A stretch of DNA of 64,000 nt from a bacterium. Lineage in GTDB: Bacteria > Patescibacteriota > Patescibacteriia > JAACEG01 > JAGUWE01. How positions within the stretch are numbered: position 1 is the stretch's first letter; each line of letters begins with the position of its first letter. Shown here piece by piece: positions 3,716 to 61,401 of the stretch. The DNA is taken from NCBI GenBank assembly GCA_043798995.1, contig JAZDOD010000008.1, positions 119,468-183,467 of the forward strand. Reading direction: 5' to 3'. The notes beneath the pieces are model-generated. The model ran no database searches. It was not told the DNA's origin and saw only the letters and a program-made list of their open reading frames with translations. The position numbers were made by a program, and so were the translations under genes.

Positions 3716-5176
3716 TTAGGGATTAAGTTCGCGCCATGAAATAAAAGTATATTCGCCGGATGTAGGAAAGGAGGGCGGCGGACTAAAAGTTAAGTGACCA
3801 TCGTAGGTAATGGTTCGGTTTTGATAACCCGAGCAGTAAGTTTCTCCGCAACTCCAGCTAAAACCATAACGGTTGTAAGTTGCCAGCGAACCGTATAAAG
3901 CGATTGAGTTTCTTTCATAATAAGTTGAGCTGCAACTTGAAGTAAAATAATAGCGGCCGATTCTGCCACTTTTGGCCACCAGCGAAGCGTCAATTTCCAA
4001 ATTGTCGTCACTGTATAAACCAACGGTAATGTTGCGCTGGGCAATTAAACCCAAAACATCAGAGCCGTTTTTATTAGTATACAATAAATTATGATTGATG
4101 ATAATATCAGCATCGCCGCTAGCCAAAGGTTCTCGGGCCGCTACCAAAGTAAGGCGGCTATTATTAATTTGGCCGTCAACCCAAACCTTATCTTCAATAA
4201 AGATTATGCCATTAGCCGGCAGAGGTTCGCCTAATTGAGGATTGTTCATAGTTTGGGCAATGCCGTCGGTATCGGTACTGCCACAAGTGTCTGTAACCGT
4301 TTTTACTATATAAATATCTACGGTTTGATTGGAATTAAAGTGCAGCCAATAACCGCGTTTGTTGGATTTATCAAGATAGAGTCCGTTGTTTTTAGCCAAT
4401 GTTTTTAAATCAGCCAGATTAGTAGTAAAGCCGTTAAAATCAACTGTGGTTACAGGAAATTTTCGGCCGGCTTGAAAAACATCCGTTCTTTGGGGGACAG
4501 CGGCTGGTGGTTGCGGGTCTTGAGGAGCAGTATGAGTATGGACTCCGAATTCAGTTTGGCTGTCATCTGGATCAACATAAGTTTGTCTGGCGCTGGTAAC
4601 AATATTGTGTGCCACGCCGTCAAATCTAATGCCGCCATTGGAATGAATCGGGCCATAGGTTTGGGTGCCGCTGCCAAAACGCATATCGGCATTTGCCACC
4701 ACAGCATAGGCAGAGAGCGCCGGAATGCCGTATTGAGCCAGAATTATTCGCTTGATATTTGGATAACTCAAAAGCCAGCCGGTTGATTGAATTGAAACAA
4801 TGGTAGTGTTAGGCATAGGCGTGATAATTAAGCTGAATTGGCCGATGATGTTGCCCTGAGGGTCGCGAAAATCATGGACATAAGGGCCGGCTCCGCCGGT
4901 TCCGTCCTGAAAATCGTCTGGTTCGTGCGCTAAATGCCAGCGGTAATAATTAATGCCGGCTTCAGCCACATGAATCGCTTGGGCTTTGGCTACTTTGTAT
5001 TTATTCAACTTATACTGATAAACCACCAGCGAAAGCAATCCGCCGGCTAAAATGATGAAGATGGAGGTGAAAACGAGAAGGGAAACCAAGATAGCTCCTT
5101 GATTAATAACTTCTGACTTCTGACTTTTTCCGCCAGAGGCGGATCCGCCTTTGGCGGAGACTTTTGACTTTATCAT
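3716..5176 (-). CDS. PilX-like minor pilin / pilus-associated protein
   Basis: N-terminal QGAILVSLLVF hydrophobic helix resembling the PilX_N domain, with no Glu at position +5. A large Gly/Thr-rich extracellular domain follows. Confidence 0.4.
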   Translation of the reverse strand: MIKSKVSAKGGSASGGKSQKSEVINQGAILVSLLVFTSIFIILAGGLLSLVVYQYKLNKYKVAKAQAIHVAEAGINYYRWHLAHEPDDFQDGTGGAGPYVHDFRDPQGNIIGQFSLIITPMPNTTIVSIQSTGWLLSYPNIKRIILAQYGIPALSAYAVVANADMRFGSGTQTYGPIHSNGGIRFDGVAHNIVTSARQTYVDPDDSQTEFGVHTHTAPQDPQPPAAVPQRTDVFQAGRKFPVTTVDFNGFTTNLADLKTLAKNNGLYLDKSNKRGYWLHFNSNQTVDIYIVKTVTDTCGSTDTDGIAQTMNNPQLGEPLPANGIIFIEDKVWVDGQINNSRLTLVAAREPLASGDADIIINHNLLYTNKNGSDVLGLIAQRNITVGLYSDDNLEIDASLVAKSGRIGRYYFTSSCSSTYYERNSIALYGSLATYNRYGFSWSCGETYCSGYQNRTITYDGHLTFSPPPSFPTSGEYTFISWRELNP

Positions 5177-5778: not shown

Positions 5779-7968
5779 TTAATTAAGGTTTAAATAAATT
5801 GTCTGGGAAGAATTAGGCAGGAGATTAATCGGTTGGACCGGATTACTTAATTTAATGGTATAACCGCCGGTAGTGGCAATGGTGTAAAGATCCCATTCCA
5901 TAGTATTTAAAAGCAGACGACCATCGCTGTCGGTTGAAAGACTGTTGTCGGAGTATTTATGAATATCCGGATCAGTGCCGATTAATTTAGCGCCGGTAAT
6001 AGCAAGAGGAACACTGCCGACATAAGTGATTTCCTGCGGCGCTTCAAACTTGGCAGCATAAATATTAAAATTATTATTGCGGTTATCTTGCCAGGTAACA
6101 TAAACAGTGCCGCTGGAATCAACAGCCAAACTGGCTGAATATTGGTCAGTGGCCGTATTATCAGTGTTGACTCTTAAATCCGACTCCCATTGCTTGACAC
6201 CATCCAGATTATATTTTTGGGCATAAACGTCGCGATTGCCTTGGCGTTCGTCAGTCCAGGCAAAATAAACAAAATTGCCGCTGACTATAATTGAGGAATA
6301 ATATTGATCAGTCGCAGTGCTGTCGGTATTAATTTTAATGTCCGAACCCCAGAGGTTGGTGCCGTCCGGGCTGTATTTTTGAGCGTAAATATTTTGATTG
6401 CCATCGCGCCAGTCAGTCCAGCTAAAATAGATGTTGCCATTTGAGTCAAAGTCAAAACTCGTAAAATTTTGTGCGGCCGTGCCCGAGTCGGTATTAATTT
6501 TTAAATCATTAGCCCAGAGTTTAGTGCCGGCTGAATCAAATTTTTGGGAATAAATATCCTGATTGCCAGCCCGACTGTCAGTCCAGGCGACATAGACATT
6601 GTTATCGCTGTCAATTTTAAGATAGGGGTTAATCTGGCAATTGCCCGGGCTGTCGCTCGTGGCTTTAACTTCAGCTGCCCAGCCATTATTGCCAGCGGGC
6701 GTGATTTTGTGAAGATAAATGTCGCCGCAATCATCACGATCATCCTGCCAGACAACATAGCAATTATTGGCGCCGTCAACATCAATAATGGGCAAAATCT
6801 GATCAGCTGAATTAGCGCCGGTATCAATTTTTTTAGAGCCAGACCAGAGATCATTGCCGTTAGCGTCCCTCTTGATTAAGAAAACATCCTGATTGCCATT
6901 AACATCATCGTTCCAGGCGTAATAAATATTATTTTGCGAATCTAAAGCCATGTCCGGATTAACCTGGTTAACGGCGCTGGAAACGCGCGCATCCGGGCTC
7001 CAGCCCGGCGTTTCATCAGTTTTATATTTTTGAGAATAAATTCTGGGTGAGTTAGCCGAATCGCGATAATCTTCCCAAGCAAAATACATATTGCCCAGAG
7101 AATCAATTTCCAAAGTCGGGTTATAATGAGAGGCGCCGGAGCTATCGGTGTTGATTTGCCAATTGTCAGGCAAAGCTTGGCGCATGGTATAAATTGTTAA
7201 ACTACTGACTAAATCAATGGCAAAACTAATGTCGGTTTTTTGGCCGGCAAAAACCGAAGCGTGGGGTTTGGTGGGATTGGGATTTTGTATTGTTCGATCA
7301 TAAGTTTGATCAGTGCTATAACCGGTTTTGGTGACAGTAACTTTATAGCTTTCAATTGAAGCCGGAGCGCCGGGAAAGATGGCATGGCCTTCGGCGTTGG
7401 TTAAAACGTCAATTAAAATTTGTGGATTGACAGCGGAATTTTCAATATGGACATTAGCGCCGTTAATTGGATTGCCGTTAGCATTAAAAACAGTAATGTA
7501 TAATGTGCCGCCGCCGAGATTAGTTTCAATGCCTTTGGGGGCAATATCAGAAATTATTGCAACCGAACTGCCTAAATAACTTTGCCAACTAACATTGATT
7601 CTGACGCGCTTGTAATCATTGCCTAATAAATCAGCAGGAACTCCGCCAACCGTGCCATCGAAAGGATCGTCAATATAAATAACTTGGGTAGAAACAGTGT
7701 AGGTAACGCCATTTCTGATTATTTGTTCAGTTTGCGCAATACTGCCTGACGGGATACCGCCCTGAGTGCCAACACTGTTGTAGGGAAGGTTGCGGATTCG
7801 TTCCATTTTTTCATTAGCCAGAGAAATAGCGCCGATTCTGGATTTATTGGTGCCGATTATTTTCAGGGCATAATCAAACATATTAAAAATTGCCAAAACC
7901 AAAAGACTGGCAACAAAAATAGTGATAAGAACCTCAATAAGAGTAAAGCCGTAATTTTTTTTTCTCAT
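5779..7968 (-). CDS. giant type IV pilin: prepilin N-terminus, CarboxypepD_reg-like Ig domain and a 7x PD40/TolB-like beta-propeller
   Basis: Prepilin motif YG/FTLIEVL. Seven repeats of about 48 aa matching Y[FV][AV]W.D.R.GN.[DN][IV]Y.QK[YF]...G..W..D..[IV]NTD. Confidence 0.7.
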   Translation of the reverse strand: MRKKNYGFTLIEVLITIFVASLLVLAIFNMFDYALKIIGTNKSRIGAISLANEKMERIRNLPYNSVGTQGGIPSGSIAQTEQIIRNGVTYTVSTQVIYIDDPFDGTVGGVPADLLGNDYKRVRINVSWQSYLGSSVAIISDIAPKGIETNLGGGTLYITVFNANGNPINGANVHIENSAVNPQILIDVLTNAEGHAIFPGAPASIESYKVTVTKTGYSTDQTYDRTIQNPNPTKPHASVFAGQKTDISFAIDLVSSLTIYTMRQALPDNWQINTDSSGASHYNPTLEIDSLGNMYFAWEDYRDSANSPRIYSQKYKTDETPGWSPDARVSSAVNQVNPDMALDSQNNIYYAWNDDVNGNQDVFLIKRDANGNDLWSGSKKIDTGANSADQILPIIDVDGANNCYVVWQDDRDDCGDIYLHKITPAGNNGWAAEVKATSDSPGNCQINPYLKIDSDNNVYVAWTDSRAGNQDIYSQKFDSAGTKLWANDLKINTDSGTAAQNFTSFDFDSNGNIYFSWTDWRDGNQNIYAQKYSPDGTNLWGSDIKINTDSTATDQYYSSIIVSGNFVYFAWTDERQGNRDVYAQKYNLDGVKQWESDLRVNTDNTATDQYSASLAVDSSGTVYVTWQDNRNNNFNIYAAKFEAPQEITYVGSVPLAITGAKLIGTDPDIHKYSDNSLSTDSDGRLLLNTMEWDLYTIATTGGYTIKLSNPVQPINLLPNSSQTIYLNLN

Positions 7969-8100: not shown

Positions 8101-9165
8101 TTATATTGCTTGCGTTAACGAATACATCGGCATGATGACAGCAATAGCCATGCCAGCCACGGCCACGCCCAAAATAAGAATTAATACCGGTTCAATTATT
8201 GAAGGCAAATTTTTCATAATTTGATCAATGTCGTTTTCATAAAATTCAGCCAACTCTTCTAAAACATTATCAAGACTGCCGGTTTGTTCGCCAACGAGAA
8301 TCATCTGGGTGACAACCGGCGGAAAAAGAGATCCATTTTTCTTTAGTAATTCTCCCAAAGAAATACCTTTGGTAACGCTGCGCGAAGCTTTAAGCACTTC
8401 TTCTTTGTATAAAACATTGCCTAAGATATTGGCCGTGATATCAAGAGTTTGCATAATCGGAATATCAGTTTTTAAAAGGGAAGAGAAAGTGCGGGAAAAG
8501 CGGGCTAAATTTATTTTTTTGATTATCGACGCAATAATAGGTAGTCGTAAAAGTATTGAATGAAAAATATATTTGCCGCGTTTGGTTGAAATTAATTTGA
8601 AGAAAAAATAAATTAACCCGATCAAGGCAATAATAACAACCAGATAATTTTGGATAACAAACTCGCTGGTCGCCATAAGAACCCGGGTTGGCAAAGGCAA
8701 AGTTACCTCCGCTTCTTTAAAGACAGCCGTAATTTTGGGAATGACAAAAACTATCATTAAAGTGCCAATGACAATCATGGCAAAAACTACCACGGCCGGA
8801 TAAATCATCGCGCCTTTGACCTTGGAACGAAGTTCATGATCTTTTTTCATCTGAATATAGATTCGGCGCAGGACATTTTCCAACTGGCCGCTGGCTTCCC
8901 CGGCTTTAATCATATTGACAAAAAGATTGTCAAAAACACGGTTGTATTTGGCCAAATGATTGGAAAGCGGTTCACCCTTTTCCACCCCTTGAGTAATATC
9001 AACAATGATTTCTTTAAATCGTTTGTTTTCGGTTTGAAGCGAAAGCGTTTTTAAAGCCTCGGCCAGTGAAATCCCTGCTTTAAGCATTACTTCTAAGTGC
9101 TGGACGAAAAAAATTTTCTCTTTGACAGGAATTCGTTTAAACTTTTTTAAAAAATTTAATTGCAT
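8101..9165 (-). CDS. pilC: type IV pilus inner-membrane platform protein PilC (GspF family)
   Basis: T2SS-F domain motifs, 3 TM segments, 354 aa. Confidence 0.8.
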   Translation of the reverse strand: MQLNFLKKFKRIPVKEKIFFVQHLEVMLKAGISLAEALKTLSLQTENKRFKEIIVDITQGVEKGEPLSNHLAKYNRVFDNLFVNMIKAGEASGQLENVLRRIYIQMKKDHELRSKVKGAMIYPAVVVFAMIVIGTLMIVFVIPKITAVFKEAEVTLPLPTRVLMATSEFVIQNYLVVIIALIGLIYFFFKLISTKRGKYIFHSILLRLPIIASIIKKINLARFSRTFSSLLKTDIPIMQTLDITANILGNVLYKEEVLKASRSVTKGISLGELLKKNGSLFPPVVTQMILVGEQTGSLDNVLEELAEFYENDIDQIMKNLPSIIEPVLILILGVAVAGMAIAVIMPMYSLTQAI

Positions 9166-9174
9166 AAAGACAAT

Positions 9175-9252
9175 AAATTTTTATTATCAAGCGAGCGAGA
9201 CCCACCAAAGTTTTTGAAAAAAATTTAGGCGGGCGAGCGAGCGCTGATATCA
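9175..9252. repeat. GC-rich MITE-like element (copy 1), ends TTATCAAGCGAGCGAGA ... GCGAGCGCTGATATCAA
   Basis: Both ends recur in inverted orientation at 52700-52810 with a different interior. Confidence 0.6.
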
Positions 9253-9259
9253 AAGGGTC

Positions 9260-31613: not shown

Positions 31614-33569
31614 ATGCCCAAAATTCCTATCAACAATAATTCCCCGCAGCCAGAGGAATCGGAAGACGGCGTTTTTCATCAGAAAGAAATCAAAGATGAT
31701 TTGATGGACATTTATCGTGATGGAGACGGCAAAATCCCGGATATGAGCCGAATTGAAATTGACAAAAAATCTCGGCTGAAATTGTTTTTGGCAAGATTCT
31801 TTTCTTTTCTCTTTATTATCGGGTTGATCGGTTTGGTGATTTATCTCATCATTCAGCGAGTTAATTATAATAATCAAGGCAAGCAGAGTCTTTCGCTGGA
31901 GGTGCAGGCGCCGCAGGTTTTGGCCTCGGGCGACAAGATAGTTTACAAAATTAATTATATTAATAATGAACAGGCGGCTTTGAATAATAATCAGCTTAAT
32001 GTTGATTATCCCGAAGGTTTTGTTTTTGAATCAGCTGATCCGGCGCCAAGCTCTGAATACAAAAACGTTTGGCAATTGGGTCGGCTTGAGGCCGGCGAGA
32101 AAAAGCTGGTAACAATTATCGGCCGTTTGATTGCGTCGCCTGATTCCGAGCAGAATCTAAAAATCATTGCTTCCTATGAGCCGGAAAATTTCCATTCTGA
32201 GTTTCAGAAATCGGTATTTTTCGCAACTAAGATAGTGGCTAATGTGATTGATTTGACAATTGAGGGTCCGGATAAGATTTTAGCCGATCAGTCAACTATT
32301 TATAGAATCAAATATAAAAACAATTCAGATCAGCCGATAGAAAAAATGCAGATAGATCTTGTCTACCCTTCAGATTTTAAATTTATTGAAGCCAGCCCCG
32401 TGCCTTCAAGCCCGATTGAGGGCGAAAAACAAAATAATCTCTGGTTAGTTGAAAGTTTGGGAGGGCTCTCTTCGGGTGAAATTAATATTAAAGGCTCTTA
32501 TCCGCAAAATTTAACCCAAGACCAGCAGTTAAAGGTTCAGATAAAAATTAAAGATCTTAACGATCAGCTGAAAATTTTAACAGAAAAAGATTTTACGAGC
32601 CACACTCTCGGTAGCGCCTTAAGTTTGAATTTAATCATTAATGGCGCTTCGGCCGACAATTCGGCTAATTTTGATGACTGGTTAAATTATTCCATTGTTT
32701 ATAAAAATAAAAGCGATACACCGCTTAATAATGTCAAAATTAGTGTTCAGGTTTTAGCTTCAGCCGGTGATACGCCATTTAATTTTATTGATTGGTCAAA
32801 AATTGCCGATGATAATCACGGCCAGCTTTCAGACAATCAAATTAACTGGACAAGCAATGAAATTTCAGAATTAAACTCACTTGATGCCGGCGAGGAAGGC
32901 GTGATTGATTTTAAAATTAAGCTCAAATCTTATCAGGAGCTGGAAGAACAAATTAAAAAAATAAGCTCAACTGATTATAAAATTGTTTCTCAAGCCAGCT
33001 TGCAAGGCGAAAACGGCTCTACAACCCAGTCAGACGGACAAACCTTGCCAATTATTTTAAAAAGCAATCAAATAACCACCCGAATTTTAAGCAACGCGAC
33101 TTTTACGGCCCAGGCCCGTTATTTTAATGATGACAACATCGCGGTTGGCAGCGGCCCCTTACCGCCGAAAGTTGGGCAGACTGCTAAATATCGCATTTAC
33201 TGGACAATCGGCAACAGCCTCCATGAGTTGGAAAATATCACTATTACGGCTAATTTATCGCCAAATATTAATTTCAGCAACCGGACCAACGCCGCTCAAG
33301 GAGAAATTTCTTATTCGTCTTCAAGCAGGGCCGTCAACTGGACCGTAAAATCTATCGCGGCTAAGGCCGGCGAGATTGAGGCTGATTTTGAAGTTGAGGT
33401 CACGCCTCGCGAAGAAGATTTGAATAAAATAATCAGTCTGGTTGGCCAATCAACTTTAACCGCCACCGACAAACAAAACAACCTCCCCTTAACTTTGAAC
33501 GCCAAACCGCTTACTTCTAATTTAGACGGTGATCCTATTGCCGAAGGCAAAGGACTGGTGACAAATTAA
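31614..33569 (+). CDS. membrane-anchored surface protein with tandem Ig-like (DUF11/CARDB-like) repeats
   Basis: N-terminal TM, then about 5 repeats containing GEKKLVTIIGRL, GEINIKGSY and GEIEADFEVEV. Confidence 0.4.
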   Translation: MPKIPINNNSPQPEESEDGVFHQKEIKDDLMDIYRDGDGKIPDMSRIEIDKKSRLKLFLARFFSFLFIIGLIGLVIYLIIQRVNYNNQGKQSLSLEVQAPQVLASGDKIVYKINYINNEQAALNNNQLNVDYPEGFVFESADPAPSSEYKNVWQLGRLEAGEKKLVTIIGRLIASPDSEQNLKIIASYEPENFHSEFQKSVFFATKIVANVIDLTIEGPDKILADQSTIYRIKYKNNSDQPIEKMQIDLVYPSDFKFIEASPVPSSPIEGEKQNNLWLVESLGGLSSGEINIKGSYPQNLTQDQQLKVQIKIKDLNDQLKILTEKDFTSHTLGSALSLNLIINGASADNSANFDDWLNYSIVYKNKSDTPLNNVKISVQVLASAGDTPFNFIDWSKIADDNHGQLSDNQINWTSNEISELNSLDAGEEGVIDFKIKLKSYQELEEQIKKISSTDYKIVSQASLQGENGSTTQSDGQTLPIILKSNQITTRILSNATFTAQARYFNDDNIAVGSGPLPPKVGQTAKYRIYWTIGNSLHELENITITANLSPNINFSNRTNAAQGEISYSSSSRAVNWTVKSIAAKAGEIEADFEVEVTPREEDLNKIISLVGQSTLTATDKQNNLPLTLNAKPLTSNLDGDPIAEGKGLVTN

Positions 33570-33696
33570 ATCCCAATATCCAAATCCCAATTTCAAATCA
33601 AATTCTAAATCCCAATAAAAAATAGTTTTTTGGATTTTGGACTTTGGATTTGATCCGCCAACTGGCGGATTGAGTTTGGGATTTTTGATTTCTAGT

Positions 33697-34995
33697 ATGT
33701 TTCAAATAATTAAAAAAAGTTCAAAAAGTTCTGCTCGAGTCGGAATTATTACAACACCTCACGGAGAAGTTAAGACCCCTTGTTTTATGCCGATCGCGAC
33801 TAAGGGGGCGGTGAAAAATTTAACGCCGGAGGAATTAAAATTTTTAGGTGCTGATTTGATTTTGGGCAATACCTATCATTTATGGCTAAGACCGGGCGTA
33901 AAAGTTATCAATAAAGTTGGCGGTTTACATAAATTTATGAATTGGTCTGGCCCGATTTTGACCGATTCAGGGGGATATCAGGTATTCTCTTTAGAGAATA
34001 AAGTCAAAAGTCAAAAGTCAAAAGTCAAAAATTTAAGTCAAAATTCAAAAGGTTATAAAAATAATTCTTTAAGTTTGGTTAAAATCGCCGATAGGGGGGT
34101 TGAGTTTAGAGATCCGTTTGATGGCAAAACTTATTTTTTAACTCCGGAAAAGGCAATTGAGATTCAATTGAAACTCGGCTCGGATATTATTATGGTTTTG
34201 GACGAATGCCCGCCTTACCCCTGCACCCGCGAACAGGCCAAAAAAGCGGTACATCGGACAACCGAATGGGCGAGAAGATGCAAAAAATTTTTCATAAAAC
34301 ATGTAACATGTAACCTGAAACATGAAAAAAGACCGTTGCTGTTTGGGATAATACAGGGTTCGGTTTATCAAGGTTTAAGAATAAAAGCTATCAGAGATTT
34401 ACTGGCAATAGGCTTTTCCGCCAAAGGCGGACCAGCCTCTGGCTGGGACGGTTATGCTATTGGCGGCGTGGCAGTAGGCGAGCCGCGGCAATATTTGGCT
34501 AAAATTCTAAAATGGGTAATACCGCTTTTACCCGAGGACAAACCTTGTTATTTAATGGGCTTAGGCAGGCCCGAAGAAATTGTTGAAGCGGTGAAATTGG
34601 GCATTGATCTTTTTGACTGCGTCATCCCAACGAGAGAAGCGAGACATGGCAGGTTATACCTTTGGAAAAATCCGAAATCCGAAATCCCTGCCCGCCATCG
34701 GCTTACACCTCAGGCGTTAGCAGGCGGGCGAAATCCGAAAAAAATCCGAAATCCGAAATCCAAAAATAAGAATTGGGAATTTTATGAGATGATAAATATT
34801 TTAAACTCTAAATATAAAAACGATTCTAATCCTATTAATCAAACTAATTTAAAAAGTTATTCAAGGGCATATTTACACCATCTTTTTAAAATGGGTGAAC
34901 CTTTAGCCCAACGGCTGGCCACATTAAACAATTTAGAATTTTATTTATCTTTAATGGTGAACTTGCGTCAGGCAGTTAAAATTGACAAAATTTAA
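33697..34995 (+). CDS. tgt: queuine tRNA-ribosyltransferase Tgt with two in-frame repeat-derived insertions
   Basis: PCFMPIATKGAVK, LGNTYHLWLRPG, GPILTDSGGYQVFSL, GYAIGGVAVGE and SRAYLHHL. The Zn cysteines are absent. The start is the ATG at 33697. Confidence 0.85.
   Translation: MFQIIKKSSKSSARVGIITTPHGEVKTPCFMPIATKGAVKNLTPEELKFLGADLILGNTYHLWLRPGVKVINKVGGLHKFMNWSGPILTDSGGYQVFSLENKVKSQKSKVKNLSQNSKGYKNNSLSLVKIADRGVEFRDPFDGKTYFLTPEKAIEIQLKLGSDIIMVLDECPPYPCTREQAKKAVHRTTEWARRCKKFFIKHVTCNLKHEKRPLLFGIIQGSVYQGLRIKAIRDLLAIGFSAKGGPASGWDGYAIGGVAVGEPRQYLAKILKWVIPLLPEDKPCYLMGLGRPEEIVEAVKLGIDLFDCVIPTREARHGRLYLWKNPKSEIPARHRLTPQALAGGRNPKKIRNPKSKNKNWEFYEMINILNSKYKNDSNPINQTNLKSYSRAYLHHLFKMGEPLAQRLATLNNLEFYLSLMVNLRQAVKIDKI
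34002..34031. repeat. heptanucleotide microsatellite (AAAGTCA)x4 inside tgt
   Basis: Direct tandem repeats. Confidence 0.8.
34666..34760. repeat. composite insertion inside tgt: (AAATCCG)n direct repeats flanking a GCCCGCC/GGCGGGC hairpin
   Basis: aaatccgaaatccgaaatcc - hairpin - cgaaatccgaaaaaaatccgaaatccgaaatcc. Confidence 0.7.
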
Positions 34996-43142: not shown

Positions 43143-43233
43143 TGTCATCCCGCACTTAATGCGGGATCCAGAACTTGCCCTTGTTAAAGTAAGGAACTAT
43201 CAAAACTGGATTCCTGCTTTCGCAGGAATGACA
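43143..43233. repeat. MITE-like composite of two inverted hairpin-repeat units
   Basis: TGTCATCCCGCActtaaTGCGGGATCCAG ... CTGGATTCCTGCtttcGCAGGAATGACA. Confidence 0.7.
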
Positions 43234-49389: not shown

Positions 49390-49515
49390 TATGTCACTGC
49401 GCACTTGCCTGCTCGCCGTAATTTTAATGCAGGCGGGATGCGGAATCCATACATTGTTTCTGTGAAAAAATAGATTATTGTTTAAAACTGGATTCCCGCT
49501 TTCGCGGGAATGACA
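49390..49515. repeat. hairpin-repeat units
   Basis: TGTCACTGCGCActtgCCTGC...GCAGGCGGGATGCGGAATCCA ... CTGGATTCCCGCtttcGCGGGAATGACA. Confidence 0.6.
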
Positions 49516-52446: not shown

Positions 52447-52683
52447 ATGGAACAGCACTCCACCTCCTCTCCTAGCAAAGATTTTCTTGAATCCCGGGGC
52501 AAAGTAATGGAATTGTTGCCGGCAGCGACATTCAAGGTTAAACTTGAAAACGGCCATGAGATTATTGCCCATCTTTCCGGCAGAATGCGGCTTAATAAAA
52601 TCCGGATTTTACCCGGCGATGAGGTTAAGGTCCAGATGACGCCTTATGATTTAACTAAAGGGAGAATTATCTATCGCCATTAA
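52447..52683 (+). CDS. infA: translation initiation factor IF-1
   Basis: [31 protein letters not shown]...[24 protein letters not shown]. Confidence 0.8.
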
Positions 52684-52699
52684 ATAAAGGGCATTAAAC

Positions 52700-52810
52700 C
52701 CCTTGATATCAGCGCTCGCCTCGCCTCGCCGTAGCCTTCGGCGAAGCGCGGGTCGGAAATGAATCCGCCAGCTGGTGGATTCATAACTCTCGCTCGCTTG
52801 ATAATAAAAA
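52700..52810. repeat. GC-rich MITE-like element (copy 2, inverted relative to 9175-9252)
   Basis: It shares both ends with copy 1. The interior holds the GAATCCGCCAGCTGGTGGATTC hairpin. Confidence 0.6.
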
Positions 52811-52853: not shown

Positions 52854-52967
52854 ATGAAAGTAGGGGCTTCAGCTAAGAAAATTTGTAAGGATTGTCGCGT
52901 TGTCAGAAGGAAAAAACGCGTTTTTATTATTTGTAAAAATCCAAAACACAAACAAAGACAAGGATAA
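52854..52967 (+). CDS. rpmJ: 50S ribosomal protein L36, absent from the ORF track
   Basis: [37 protein letters not shown]. Confidence 0.85.
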
Positions 52968-61221: not shown

Positions 61222-61401
61222 TCTTTCCAAAAAAATTTTAAAAAGGTTCATCCGCCAGCTGGCGGGGAAAATGTAAAAAATTATTTGTGATTTTTTGTTA
61301 GCCCAATTCCGATTTTTTTTATTCTATTTTAAAAGGACAAAATAAATTTATTTCGCCTATTTAAGTTTCGGAGTGAACGGATTTTGCACAATGGGCGGCG
61401 G

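What the first reader, a model, noticed from the sequence alone, without database searches (positions are those of the whole stretch)
9175..9252. GC-rich MITE-like element present twice in opposite orientation, with conserved ends and swapped interior
Copy 1 is 9175-9252, between pilC and pilB. Copy 2 is 52700-52810, between infA and rpmJ. They share TTATTATCAAGCGAGCGAGA and GCGAGCGCTGATATCAA(G)GG ends, but the interiors differ. Copy 2 contains the GAATCCGCCAGCTGGTGGATTC hairpin, which also occurs on its own at 33652-33672 and 61237-61257. In this AT-rich genome these GC-rich modules stand out. Being mosaic suggests they recombine.
Basis: seen in the sequence. Interest (0 to 1): 0.5.

Follow-up and report, generated by a model that had tools for sequence, protein, structure and literature searches.

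The report
Small mobile hairpin element of ultrasmall bacteria
The two GC-rich stretches are copies of a small, hairpin-forming piece of mobile DNA with no gene of its own; I found no published description of this family, which is common in groundwater "ultrasmall" bacteria and can even sit in-frame inside essential genes.

Summary
Both 20-nt ends occur exactly twice in the window (chance about 0), and a covariance model finds no third copy.

The two stretches belong to a large repeat family. More than 110 non-redundant copies turned up in Patescibacteria (CPR) and groundwater Elusimicrobiota genomes and metagenomes. The consensus is TTTAT|TATCAAGCGAGCGAGAG-[covarying hairpin]-CCGAGCGAGCGCAGATAACAC-[small hairpin, loop TTAATA]-TTTAT.

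Both window copies are insertions. Relatives with 81-90% identical flanking proteins have empty pilB-pilC and infA-rpmJ spacers. Filled and empty sites differ by the element plus a second TTAT/TTTAT.

In other genomes the element sits in-frame inside pdxA, proC, lgt and an oxidoreductase gene, as Rickettsia palindromic elements do. There are no terminal inverted repeats, no neighbouring transposase, no Rfam match and no orientation bias relative to transcription.

The "swapped interiors" are three architecture variants. Each recurs in other genomes, at up to 97% identity, so they were not made by recombination in this genome.

Best reading: a non-autonomous, structure-dependent mobile element of the REP/RPE/MITE kind, mobilised in trans by an unknown enzyme. 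It is a new family of a known kind, of moderate interest.

The parts
9180..9184 (+). Copy 1, left TTTAT: the target or target-site duplication immediately 5' of the element.
   Evidence: Positions -5 to -1 before TATCAAGCG are T, T, T, A, T in 91, 105, 109, 111 and 113 of the 113 copies. The empty site in L188 has a single TTAT.
9185..9200 (+). Copy 1, conserved 5' block TATCAAGCGAGCGAGA.
   Evidence: Exact in both window copies. Present in about 35 CPR/Elusimicrobia genome loci.
9201..9233 (+). Copy 1, interior hairpin of variant B: CCCACC, an AT-rich loop, then GGCGGG.
   Evidence: The same interior occurs in L019, L030, L015 and L044.
9234..9259 (+). Copy 1, conserved 3' block CGAGCGAGCGCTGATATCA plus the tail AAGGGTC. 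Only the 5' arm of the small hairpin HP2 is present.
   Evidence: L019 has the same HP2-less tail.
9260..9263 (+). Copy 1, right TTAT, the duplicated target. Its TTA is the complement of the ancestral pilB stop codon.
   Evidence: PilB ends in RVTRE* in all relatives. Empty sites read ..TTAT-TCTC...
52684..52688 (-). Copy 2, 3'-flanking TTTAT (ATAAA on the + strand), directly after the infA stop codon.
52687..52704 (-). Copy 2, small 3' hairpin HP2 (AAGGGG TTTAAT GCCCTT on the - strand).
   Evidence: The HP2 stem covaries and its loop is conserved across copies.
52705..52719 (-). Copy 2, conserved 3' block (GCGAGCGCTGATATCA on the - strand).
52720..52756 (-). Copy 2, extra GC-rich hairpin module of variant C, inserted between ..TTTCCGA and GCGAGCGC.
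   Evidence: Comparable modules sit at the same position in L027, L115, L033, L074, L170 and L020.
52756..52787 (-). Copy 2, main hairpin HP1 (GTTATGAATCCACCAGCTGGCGGATTCATTTC on the - strand). Its tip is the CCRCCAGCTGGYGG palindrome.
   Evidence: A near-identical HP1 occurs in L019 and L034.
52787..52803 (-). Copy 2, conserved 5' block (TATCAAGCGAGCGAGAG on the - strand).
52804..52808 (-). Copy 2, 5'-flanking TTTAT (ATAAA on the + strand).
33653..33670 (.). Stand-alone ATCCGCCAACTGGCGGAT palindrome, the same module as the tip of copy 2's HP1. It is not a copy of the element.
61250..61267 (.). Stand-alone ATCCGCCAGCTGGCGGGG palindrome. It is not a copy of the element.

Best explanation
The two sites are copies of a family of 70-125 bp non-autonomous mobile DNA elements that depends on hairpin structure rather than on terminal inverted repeats.

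Anatomy: a 5' block TATCAAGCGAGCGAGAG, then a main hairpin whose sequence is free but whose pairing is kept, then a 3' block CCGAGCGAGCGCAGATAAC, and usually a small hairpin with loop TTAATA.

The ends TTATC/GATAA and the GC steps of the two GCGAGCGAG blocks can pair. This gives a rod interrupted by conserved 2x2 mismatches, which are G.A/A.G on the purine strand.

The element inserts at TTTAT (or TTAT) and leaves that short sequence on both sides. It carries no gene, so an enzyme encoded elsewhere must move it. I infer a single-strand hairpin-recognising recombinase, most plausibly of the HUH type, but this is not shown.

The element spreads within and between genomes of groundwater Patescibacteria and Elusimicrobiota. 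It tolerates coding sequence when the gene reads its pyrimidine strand.

In this window both copies are neutral-looking insertions into short operon spacers, pilB-pilC and infA-rpmJ.

Shown: family membership, insertion polymorphism, the flanking duplication, hairpin covariation, in-frame gene insertions, and the lack of a nearby transposase. Inferred: ssDNA recognition, the type of enzyme, and horizontal transfer.
For: - The ends are exact and non-random in the window.
- About 35 copies lie in 17 or more CPR/Elusimicrobia MAGs.
- Copies are 93-97% identical between genomes whose flanking genes are 64-70% identical or unalignable.
- infA-rpmJ is empty in L062 (24-nt spacer, InfA 90% identical) and in L063 (80 nt, 82%).
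- pilB-pilC is empty in L188, L189 and L190, with spacers of 9, 12 and 39 nt and PilC 86-81% identical.
- For pdxA, four homologues carry the insert and eight lack it. At DNA level the empty site reads CAACTTC-TTTAT-TTTTC and the filled site reads CAACTTT-TTTAT-[element]-TTTAT-TTTTC.
- Pfam domains span in-frame inserts in Pyr_redox_2, PdxA, LGT and ProC proteins.
- Covariation: 14 pairs change on both sides, 93.5% of cells pair against 33-52% when the partner is slid, and 0 of 500 shuffles reach the observed values.
- There is no strand bias relative to transcription: 20 forward against 17 reverse between co-directional genes.
- No Rfam family matches.
Against: - No mobilising enzyme was identified. 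No ORF-bearing version with the same ends was found, and no recurrent neighbouring gene.
- The very high conservation of the two blocks across distant lineages is unusual for selfish repeats and could mean a host function.
- Orientation shows no link to local GC skew (38 vs 30). This gives no support to an IS200/IS605-like preference for the lagging strand.
- Predicted folding energies are the same on both strands. The functional strand rests only on G.U:A.C = 27:14 and on the G.A argument.
- The length of the duplication (2-5 nt) cannot be fixed in T-rich context. An element-borne terminal TTTAT cannot be excluded.
Confidence: 0.8

Rival explanations
1. It is a gene for a small structured RNA, or a cis-acting RNA motif, whose conserved blocks and covarying hairpins serve an RNA function. 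The many copies would then be gene duplicates.
For: Covariation is strong in two hairpins. G.U exceeds A.C by 27 to 14 on the purine strand. The internal-loop sequence is conserved and could form tandem G.A pairs. The small hairpin followed by TTTATTTT resembles a weak terminator. Folding z-scores run from -4.4 to -5.9.
Against: The upstream sequence is not conserved beyond TTTAT, so there is no promoter (none detected). Orientation relative to neighbouring genes is random (20 vs 17). Copies lie in-frame inside pdxA, proC, lgt and an oxidoreductase gene, antisense to the putative RNA strand. Presence varies between close relatives. Tandem copies share one TTTAT. Distribution is sporadic, about 17 MAGs among 185,579 species representatives by the exact 17-mer. 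No Rfam family matches.
Confidence: 0.08
2. It is primarily a host-selected 3'-end element, that is a terminator or mRNA-stabilising hairpin as has been proposed for REP and SPRITE, and mobility is incidental.
For: Copies are enriched between convergent genes (24) relative to divergent genes (9), binomial p about 0.015. Many copies follow directly on a terminator-like hairpin with a T-run, a tRNA or 5S rRNA. HP2 with its T-run scores as terminator-like in copy 2.
Against: Between co-directional genes both orientations are equally common. Both window copies sit inside operons, pilB-pilC and infA-rpmJ, where termination would be harmful, and they present the hairpin without a T-tract to the mRNA. 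Copies occur inside coding sequences. The terminator scan found none at copy 1 and one at copy 2, within chance expectation. Avoiding divergent spacers is equally expected from selection against disrupted promoters.
Confidence: 0.1
3. It is a classical DDE-transposase MITE, an internally deleted insertion sequence with terminal inverted repeats and a fixed-length target duplication.
For: It is small, multi-copy and non-coding, with insertion polymorphism and a flanking TTAT/TTTAT duplication.
Against: There are no terminal inverted repeats: the 5' end TATCAAGCGAGCG has no inverted counterpart at the 3' end ..GGGTTAATACCC. The hairpin sequence varies freely with compensation. That pattern points to a structural requirement, not a sequence-specific one. 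No longer element with the same ends was found in about 1.3 Mb of flanking DNA.
Confidence: 0.05

Closest known systems
Rickettsia palindromic elements (RPE)
   Same: Both are short palindromic repeats in a reduced genome with no transposase of their own. Both occur in intergenic DNA and repeatedly in-frame inside unrelated housekeeping genes, where they add a conserved peptide. The RPE description is from PMC10969869. Here the peptide is ..KGYKPCVISARSEMK..HFTRSLDNK.. in PdxA, ProC and an oxidoreductase.
   Different: The hosts differ (Patescibacteria and Elusimicrobiota, not Rickettsia). This element is shorter, about 80 bp against about 150 bp. It has a defined TTTAT target and conserved mismatched GCGAGCGAG blocks. 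Sequence relatedness to RPEs was not tested. Most copies here are intergenic: about 6 of 113 are in genes.
REP / REPIN elements mobilised by RAYT (Y1 HUH) transposases
   Same: Both are GC-rich imperfect palindromes in which pairing rather than sequence is conserved. Both are multi-copy, sit mostly at gene 3' ends, sometimes in tandem, and have no terminal inverted repeats. Recognition as a folded single strand is plausible for both.
   Different: This element has no GTAG-type 5' tetranucleotide. It is 2-3 times longer and has two different hairpins. It also occurs inside genes. No RAYT-like gene was seen next to any copy. It is shared across phyla, whereas REPs are species-specific (my own knowledge).
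IS200/IS605-derived palindrome-associated transposable elements (PATEs)
   Same: Both have asymmetric ends without inverted repeats, hairpins near both ends, and insertion next to a specific 4-5 nt sequence. From memory, IS606 is reported to use TTTAT.
   Different: The two hairpins are unlike each other, whereas the left-end and right-end hairpins of IS200/IS605 resemble each other. The target sequence appears on both sides. No orientation bias with skew was seen. No tnpA or tnpB was found nearby.
Bacterial MITEs such as Correia, ERIC, RUP and QMITE
   Same: They match in size, copy number, non-autonomy, insertion polymorphism, occasional in-frame insertion into genes, and possible effects on neighbouring genes.
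   Different: Those elements are defined by terminal inverted repeats that match a parent insertion sequence. This element has none.

Membership tests
Classical MITE | Terminal inverted repeats | tested here: not met
   The alignment of 22-24 copies shows a 5' end TATCAAGCGAGCG and a 3' end ..GGGTTAATACCC(TTTAT). Only TTATC/GATAA are complementary, and they are internal.
Classical MITE | Target-site duplication | tested here: inconclusive
   TTTAT/TTAT flanks the insert on both sides and occurs once in the empty sites at pdxA and pilB-pilC. Its length is ambiguous in T-rich context. The 3' T's also pair within HP2.
Classical MITE | Small, non-coding and multi-copy, with insertion polymorphism | tested here: met
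   copy number; empty sites.
Classical MITE | A parent insertion sequence with the same ends | tested here: not met
   No 5' block/3' block pair encloses an ORF in about 190 loci. This covers only 8-15 kb around each copy.
Rickettsia palindromic elements | Palindromic repeat inserted in-frame in protein-coding genes and compatible with the protein | tested here: met
   Pfam domains span the inserts in Pyr_redox_2, PdxA, LGT and ProC proteins. PdxA homologues exist with and without the 26-aa insert. The window's own two copies are intergenic.
Rickettsia palindromic elements | Sequence homology to RPE-1 to RPE-10, and a Rickettsia host | not tested
   No RPE sequences were available. The hosts here are CPR and Elusimicrobiota, so this is at most an analogue.
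REP/REPIN-RAYT | A 20-40 nt imperfect palindrome with a conserved 5' tetranucleotide, strictly extragenic | tested here: not met
   The element is 70-125 nt with two hairpins, and it occurs inside genes.
REP/REPIN-RAYT | An associated RAYT gene flanked by the repeats | not testable with these tools
None was found among 755 neighbouring ORFs by clustering.
IS200/IS605 PATE | No inverted repeats, and similar subterminal hairpins at both ends | tested here: inconclusive
   The absence of inverted repeats is met. Hairpins lie near both ends but are dissimilar.
IS200/IS605 PATE | Strand bias with respect to replication | tested here: not met
   Purine-strand orientation against local GC skew gives 38 vs 30, p = 0.40. 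This is a weak test because local skew follows gene strand.
Rfam structured RNA families | A match at the gathering score | tested here: not met
   No hit in the window, none in the two regions at E <= 10 beyond noise, and none on 20 loci with canonical copies.
Intrinsic terminator | A GC hairpin followed by a U-run, oriented with the upstream gene | tested here: not met
   No terminator was called at copy 1. One weak call at copy 2 lies on the strand antisense to the genes. Orientation relative to genes is random.
Integron attC site | RYYYAAC...GTTRRRY boxes, arrays of cassettes next to intI | tested here: not met
   The boxes are absent. Copies are dispersed, in both orientations, and occur in tandem without cassettes.

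The most novel reading that the evidence does not exclude
The element may be more than a selfish repeat. It could be a cross-phylum, structure-coded mobile element whose invariant mismatched rod (GCGAGCGAG opposite CGAGCGAGC, with tandem G.A) is the recognition site for a so-far unknown mobilisation system shared by groundwater Patescibacteria and Elusimicrobiota. That system might be a host-encoded single-strand recombinase, or something coupled to DNA uptake. The element would then actively reshape proteins in these minimal genomes through in-frame insertion. Together with the other GC-hairpin modules seen in the window, this would make palindrome insertion a general driver of protein and spacer evolution in ultrasmall bacteria.
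Probability: 0.2. Interest if true: 0.75.

Novelty: new member of a known kind. Interest (0 to 1): 0.55.

Why it matters
CPR/Patescibacteria genomes are usually described as streamlined and poor in mobile DNA. Three points follow from this family.

- It is abundant and highly conserved, and it moves between genomes of different phyla, which gives a marker for gene flow among ultrasmall groundwater bacteria.
- It explains many GC-rich "islands" in AT-rich spacers that could otherwise be mistaken for RNA genes or terminators.
- It accounts for odd 20-30-residue inserts in conserved enzymes of these organisms, which matters for annotation and structure prediction.

The element moves without terminal inverted repeats or a linked transposase. 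That makes it a tractable entry point for finding the responsible enzyme.

Tried and rejected
- **Promoter reading of the TTGATA motifs.** No -10 partner at the right spacing, and the scan found none.
- **Rfam families.** No credible hit, including ribozymes, CRISPR repeats and group II domain 5 among the sub-threshold noise.
- **Viral origin.** Ten matches in viral contigs were all chance hits in coding DNA of 46-60% GC.
- **Exact-protein look-ups.** Look-ups of the window's InfA, RpmJ and PilC, and of the 100%-identical InfA hit P0001, found no contig record.
- **Associated gene.** Clustering of neighbouring ORFs gave only housekeeping families, a DUF5701 protein and a nuclease-GGDEF protein, and no transposase.
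- **Autonomous version.** None found.
- **Replication-strand bias.** None.
- **Strand assignment from folding energy.** Both strands fold equally well.
- **Stop codons as the reason for gene-insert orientation.** I had thought stop codons on the purine strand explained why gene insertions are always read on the other strand. That is wrong: 48 of 66 copies have an open frame on the purine strand.
- **pilB stop codon from the element.** I had thought the pilB stop codon came from the element. That is also wrong: PilB ends in RVTRE* in relatives that lack the element.
- **Resemblance of CTTGATA to the nick site of pC194/phiX174-type rolling-circle replicons.** This is recalled from memory. The left-end copy of the motif is present only in the GATATC subfamily and could not be tested.
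- **attC, DGR, retron and DNA-uptake-sequence readings.** The anatomy and the dispersed distribution do not fit.

Full report
**Observation**

The finding is real. TTATTATCAAGCGAGCGAGA occurs at 9181-9200 (+) and 52788-52807 (-). GCGAGCGCTGATATCAARGG occurs at 9237-9256 (+) and 52700-52719 (-). Neither has any further match even with three mismatches, and 0.00-0.01 matches are expected by chance. The interiors differ as described.

Copy 1 lies between the stop codon of pilB (9260-10990, -) and the start codon of pilC (8101-9165, -). Copy 2 lies between infA (52447-52683, +) and rpmJ (52854-52967, +). The copies are opposite in window coordinates but have the same orientation relative to their operons.

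**A large family**

A scan of one genome per species for TTATCAAGCGAGCGAGA gave 51 loci. About 35 of the matches are full elements in Patescibacteria MAGs and in two MAGs labelled Elusimicrobia. The Patescibacteria hosts include UBA4787, H41-bin211_1, DeMMO5_21, SO_2017_LW3_137, Komeili-, Falkow- and Saccharibacteria, and Parcubacteria. The remaining matches are chance hits in unrelated coding DNA.

I compiled 113 non-redundant copies in all. Viral contigs gave only chance matches.

The consensus is TTTAT|TATCAAGCGAGCGAGAG-HP1-CCGAGCGAGCGCAGATAACAC-AGGGT TAAT ACCCT-TTAT. Some copies stand in tandem and share one TTTAT (L007, L029, L033, L074, L115, L156).

A covariance model built from 22 copies in other genomes finds the two window copies (E = 6.5e-10 and 7e-5) and nothing else in the window.

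**Structure**

On an alignment of 22 copies:
- 93.5% of cells pair in the proposed structure, against 33-52% when the 3' partner is slid by 1-3 columns.
- 14 pairs change on both sides: 11 in helix 2, all within HP1, and 3 in the small hairpin HP2.
- None of 500 shuffles reaches the observed values.

HP1's sequence is essentially free: GAAATGAAA.., GAAGAGCAAAC.., GGAGAGCAAAC.., GAAGTGATATGC.. all occur. The flanking blocks are nearly invariant.

TTATC pairs with GATAA. The two GCGAGCGAG blocks pair at their G-C steps and leave conserved 2x2 internal loops. These loops are G.A/A.G on the purine strand and C.U/U.C on the other (MFE structures).

Nearest-neighbour energies do not separate the strands (-27.7 vs -27.6 kcal/mol as RNA, -16.2 vs -15.7 as DNA). 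G.U cells outnumber A.C cells 27 to 14 on the purine strand. That is weak evidence that the purine strand is the one that folds.

**It is an insertion**

- **infA-rpmJ.** The two closest relatives found, with InfA 90% and 82% identical, have spacers of 24 and 80 nt with no trace of the element.
- **pilB-pilC.** Relatives with PilC 86%, 84% and 81% identical have spacers of 9, 12 and 39 nt. PilB ends in RVTRE* in all of them. On the element's strand the empty site reads ..AAATT-TTAT-TCTC.. and the window reads ..AAATTT-TTAT-[TATCAAGCG..AAAGGGTC]-TTAT-TCTC... The closest relative (95%) carries a different GC-hairpin insert in the same spacer.
- **Identity between genomes.** Element copies are 93-97% identical between the window and other MAGs, although the surrounding genes align at 64-70% or not at all.

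**Insertions inside genes**

In other genomes the element lies in-frame within conserved genes:
- a Pyr_redox_2 oxidoreductase gene (L067);
- pdxA (L090 and L132, one shared event);
- proC (L110);
- lgt (L084, in another frame);
- after the PilM domain of a pilM-like ORF (L034).

Pfam domains span the inserts in the first four.

For PdxA, which NCBI assigns to Elusimicrobiota, four homologues carry the 26-residue insert KGYKPCVISARSEMKT..HFT.SLDNK. Eight homologues that are 73-88% identical elsewhere lack it. At the DNA level the empty allele reads CAACTTC-TTTAT-TTTTC and the filled allele reads CAACTTT-TTTAT-[element]-TTTAT-TTTTC.

In all five independent events the gene reads the pyrimidine strand. 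Stop codons alone do not explain this.

**Context statistics**

Among 70 copies with both neighbours called within 350 nt:

| Neighbouring genes | Copies |
|---|---|
| Convergent | 24 |
| Co-directional, purine strand sense | 20 |
| Co-directional, purine strand antisense | 17 |
| Divergent | 9 |

There is no strand preference relative to transcription. Divergent, promoter-bearing spacers are avoided (24 vs 9, p about 0.015).

The upstream flank is conserved only as T-rich sequence ending in TTTAT. Many copies follow directly on a terminator-like hairpin with a T-run, a tRNA or 5S rRNA. Orientation does not follow local GC skew (38 vs 30).

No gene family recurs next to the copies, no transposase was seen, and no ORF-bearing version exists in the sampled DNA. 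No Rfam family matches either the window or the canonical copies.

**The mosaic interior**

Three architectures recur:
- **A**, a single HP1.
- **B**, HP1 replaced by CCCRCC, an AT-rich loop and GGCGGG, with an HP2-less tail. This is window copy 1, and also L019, L030, L015, L044 and L133.
- **C**, HP1 plus a second GC-rich hairpin between ..TTTCCGA and GCGAGCGC. This is window copy 2, and also L027, L115, L033, L074, L170 and L020.

Each variant is found in several genomes, so the window's two forms were not made by recombination in this genome.

The CCGCCAGCTGGCGG palindrome at the tip of copy 2's HP1 also occurs alone, inside other copies, and translated as NPPAG in proteins. It behaves as an independent small module.

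**Interpretation**

The evidence fits a non-autonomous mobile element recognised by its folded shape, mobilised in trans, with target TTTAT/TTAT.

The closest analogues are Rickettsia palindromic elements (in-frame gene insertions in a reduced genome; PMC10969869), REP/REPIN elements and IS200/IS605-derived PATEs. It fails the defining test for a classical MITE because it has no terminal inverted repeats. It cannot be placed in any of those families by sequence.

Full-text searches of the held open-access paper library found no description of such an element in CPR or Elusimicrobia.

The RNA-gene and terminator readings are disfavoured by random orientation, coding insertions, the lack of a promoter and presence/absence polymorphism. 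They are not excluded as secondary roles.

**Verdict**

This is a new family of a known kind. Interest is moderate, raised by three features: cross-phylum sharing at 84-89% identity, the conserved mismatched rod, and the in-frame protein insertions.

Noticed in passing
window 33637-34995 (tgt), inserts at about 34000-34075, 34417-34443 and 34665-34765: Compared with a solved Tgt structure, the window's tgt gene has three in-frame inserts. The first is a run of AAAGTCA-type repeats. The second is a pair of GC hairpins (CCGCCAAAGGCGG / CCAGCCTCTGGCTGG) encoding FSAKGGPASG. The third is a GC hairpin flanked by AAATCCG repeats. So GC-rich palindromic modules also sit inside coding sequence in this genome.
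   Followed up: partly
window 33560-33700: AAATCCCAA-type short repeats and their complements form long AT-rich arms around the stand-alone CCGCCAACTGGCGG hairpin, just upstream of and overlapping the start of tgt. This looks like a second kind of composite repeat.
   Followed up: no
window 36932, 46585, 47414, 48952/48984, 59467/59497/59531: A separate repeat family, TGTCA-[hairpin YCTGAAAC..GTTCAGR with compensating stem changes]-CTCA, often occurs as back-to-back copies in opposite orientation in intergenic DNA.
   Followed up: no
window 43202-43233 and 49484-49515: Two 94%-identical copies of AAAACTGGATTCCYGCTTTCGCRGGAATGACA, a hairpin that ends in TGACA like the family above.
   Followed up: no
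window 5132-5158 and 34417-34443: GCCAGAGGCGGATCCGCCTTTGGCGGA and its near-complement occur once in a spacer and once inside tgt (27 nt, 93% complementary).
   Followed up: partly
L187 4345-4418 (pilB-pilC spacer of the closest relative, PilC 95% identical): The same spacer that holds copy 1 in the window holds a different insert here: two GC hairpins (CCCCCTACGGGG, TCTCCAGAAGGGAGA) flanked by AATTTCCAA-type repeats. These short spacers seem to be hot spots for hairpin elements.
   Followed up: no
PdxA homologues P0121-P0132 (alignment A3): Besides the element, these Elusimicrobiota PdxA proteins show further short insertion polymorphisms (RVGQPLAE, NPPAGRHA, PVRNPALRDAISNKVK, TCPTNPVGRVCLTGLCRRG, PPEADPLSTD). 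Several look like translated GC-rich palindromes.
   Followed up: no
window 14669-14730: A near-perfect palindrome of 31 + 31 nt with no spacer (87% complementary) contains TTGACA. It may be an operator/promoter region.
   Followed up: no
window 6208-6615, inside ORF 5779-7968 (-): Internal repeats of 81-128 nt at 165/327-nt spacing (70% identity) lie inside a 729-aa ORF next to the pilus genes, which suggests a repeat-domain protein.
   Followed up: no
L033 7119-7170: A collapsed copy, TTATTATC-GAGCGAGCGAAGATAATATAGG, lacks the whole interior, as if deleted between the two direct GCGAGCG blocks.
   Followed up: no
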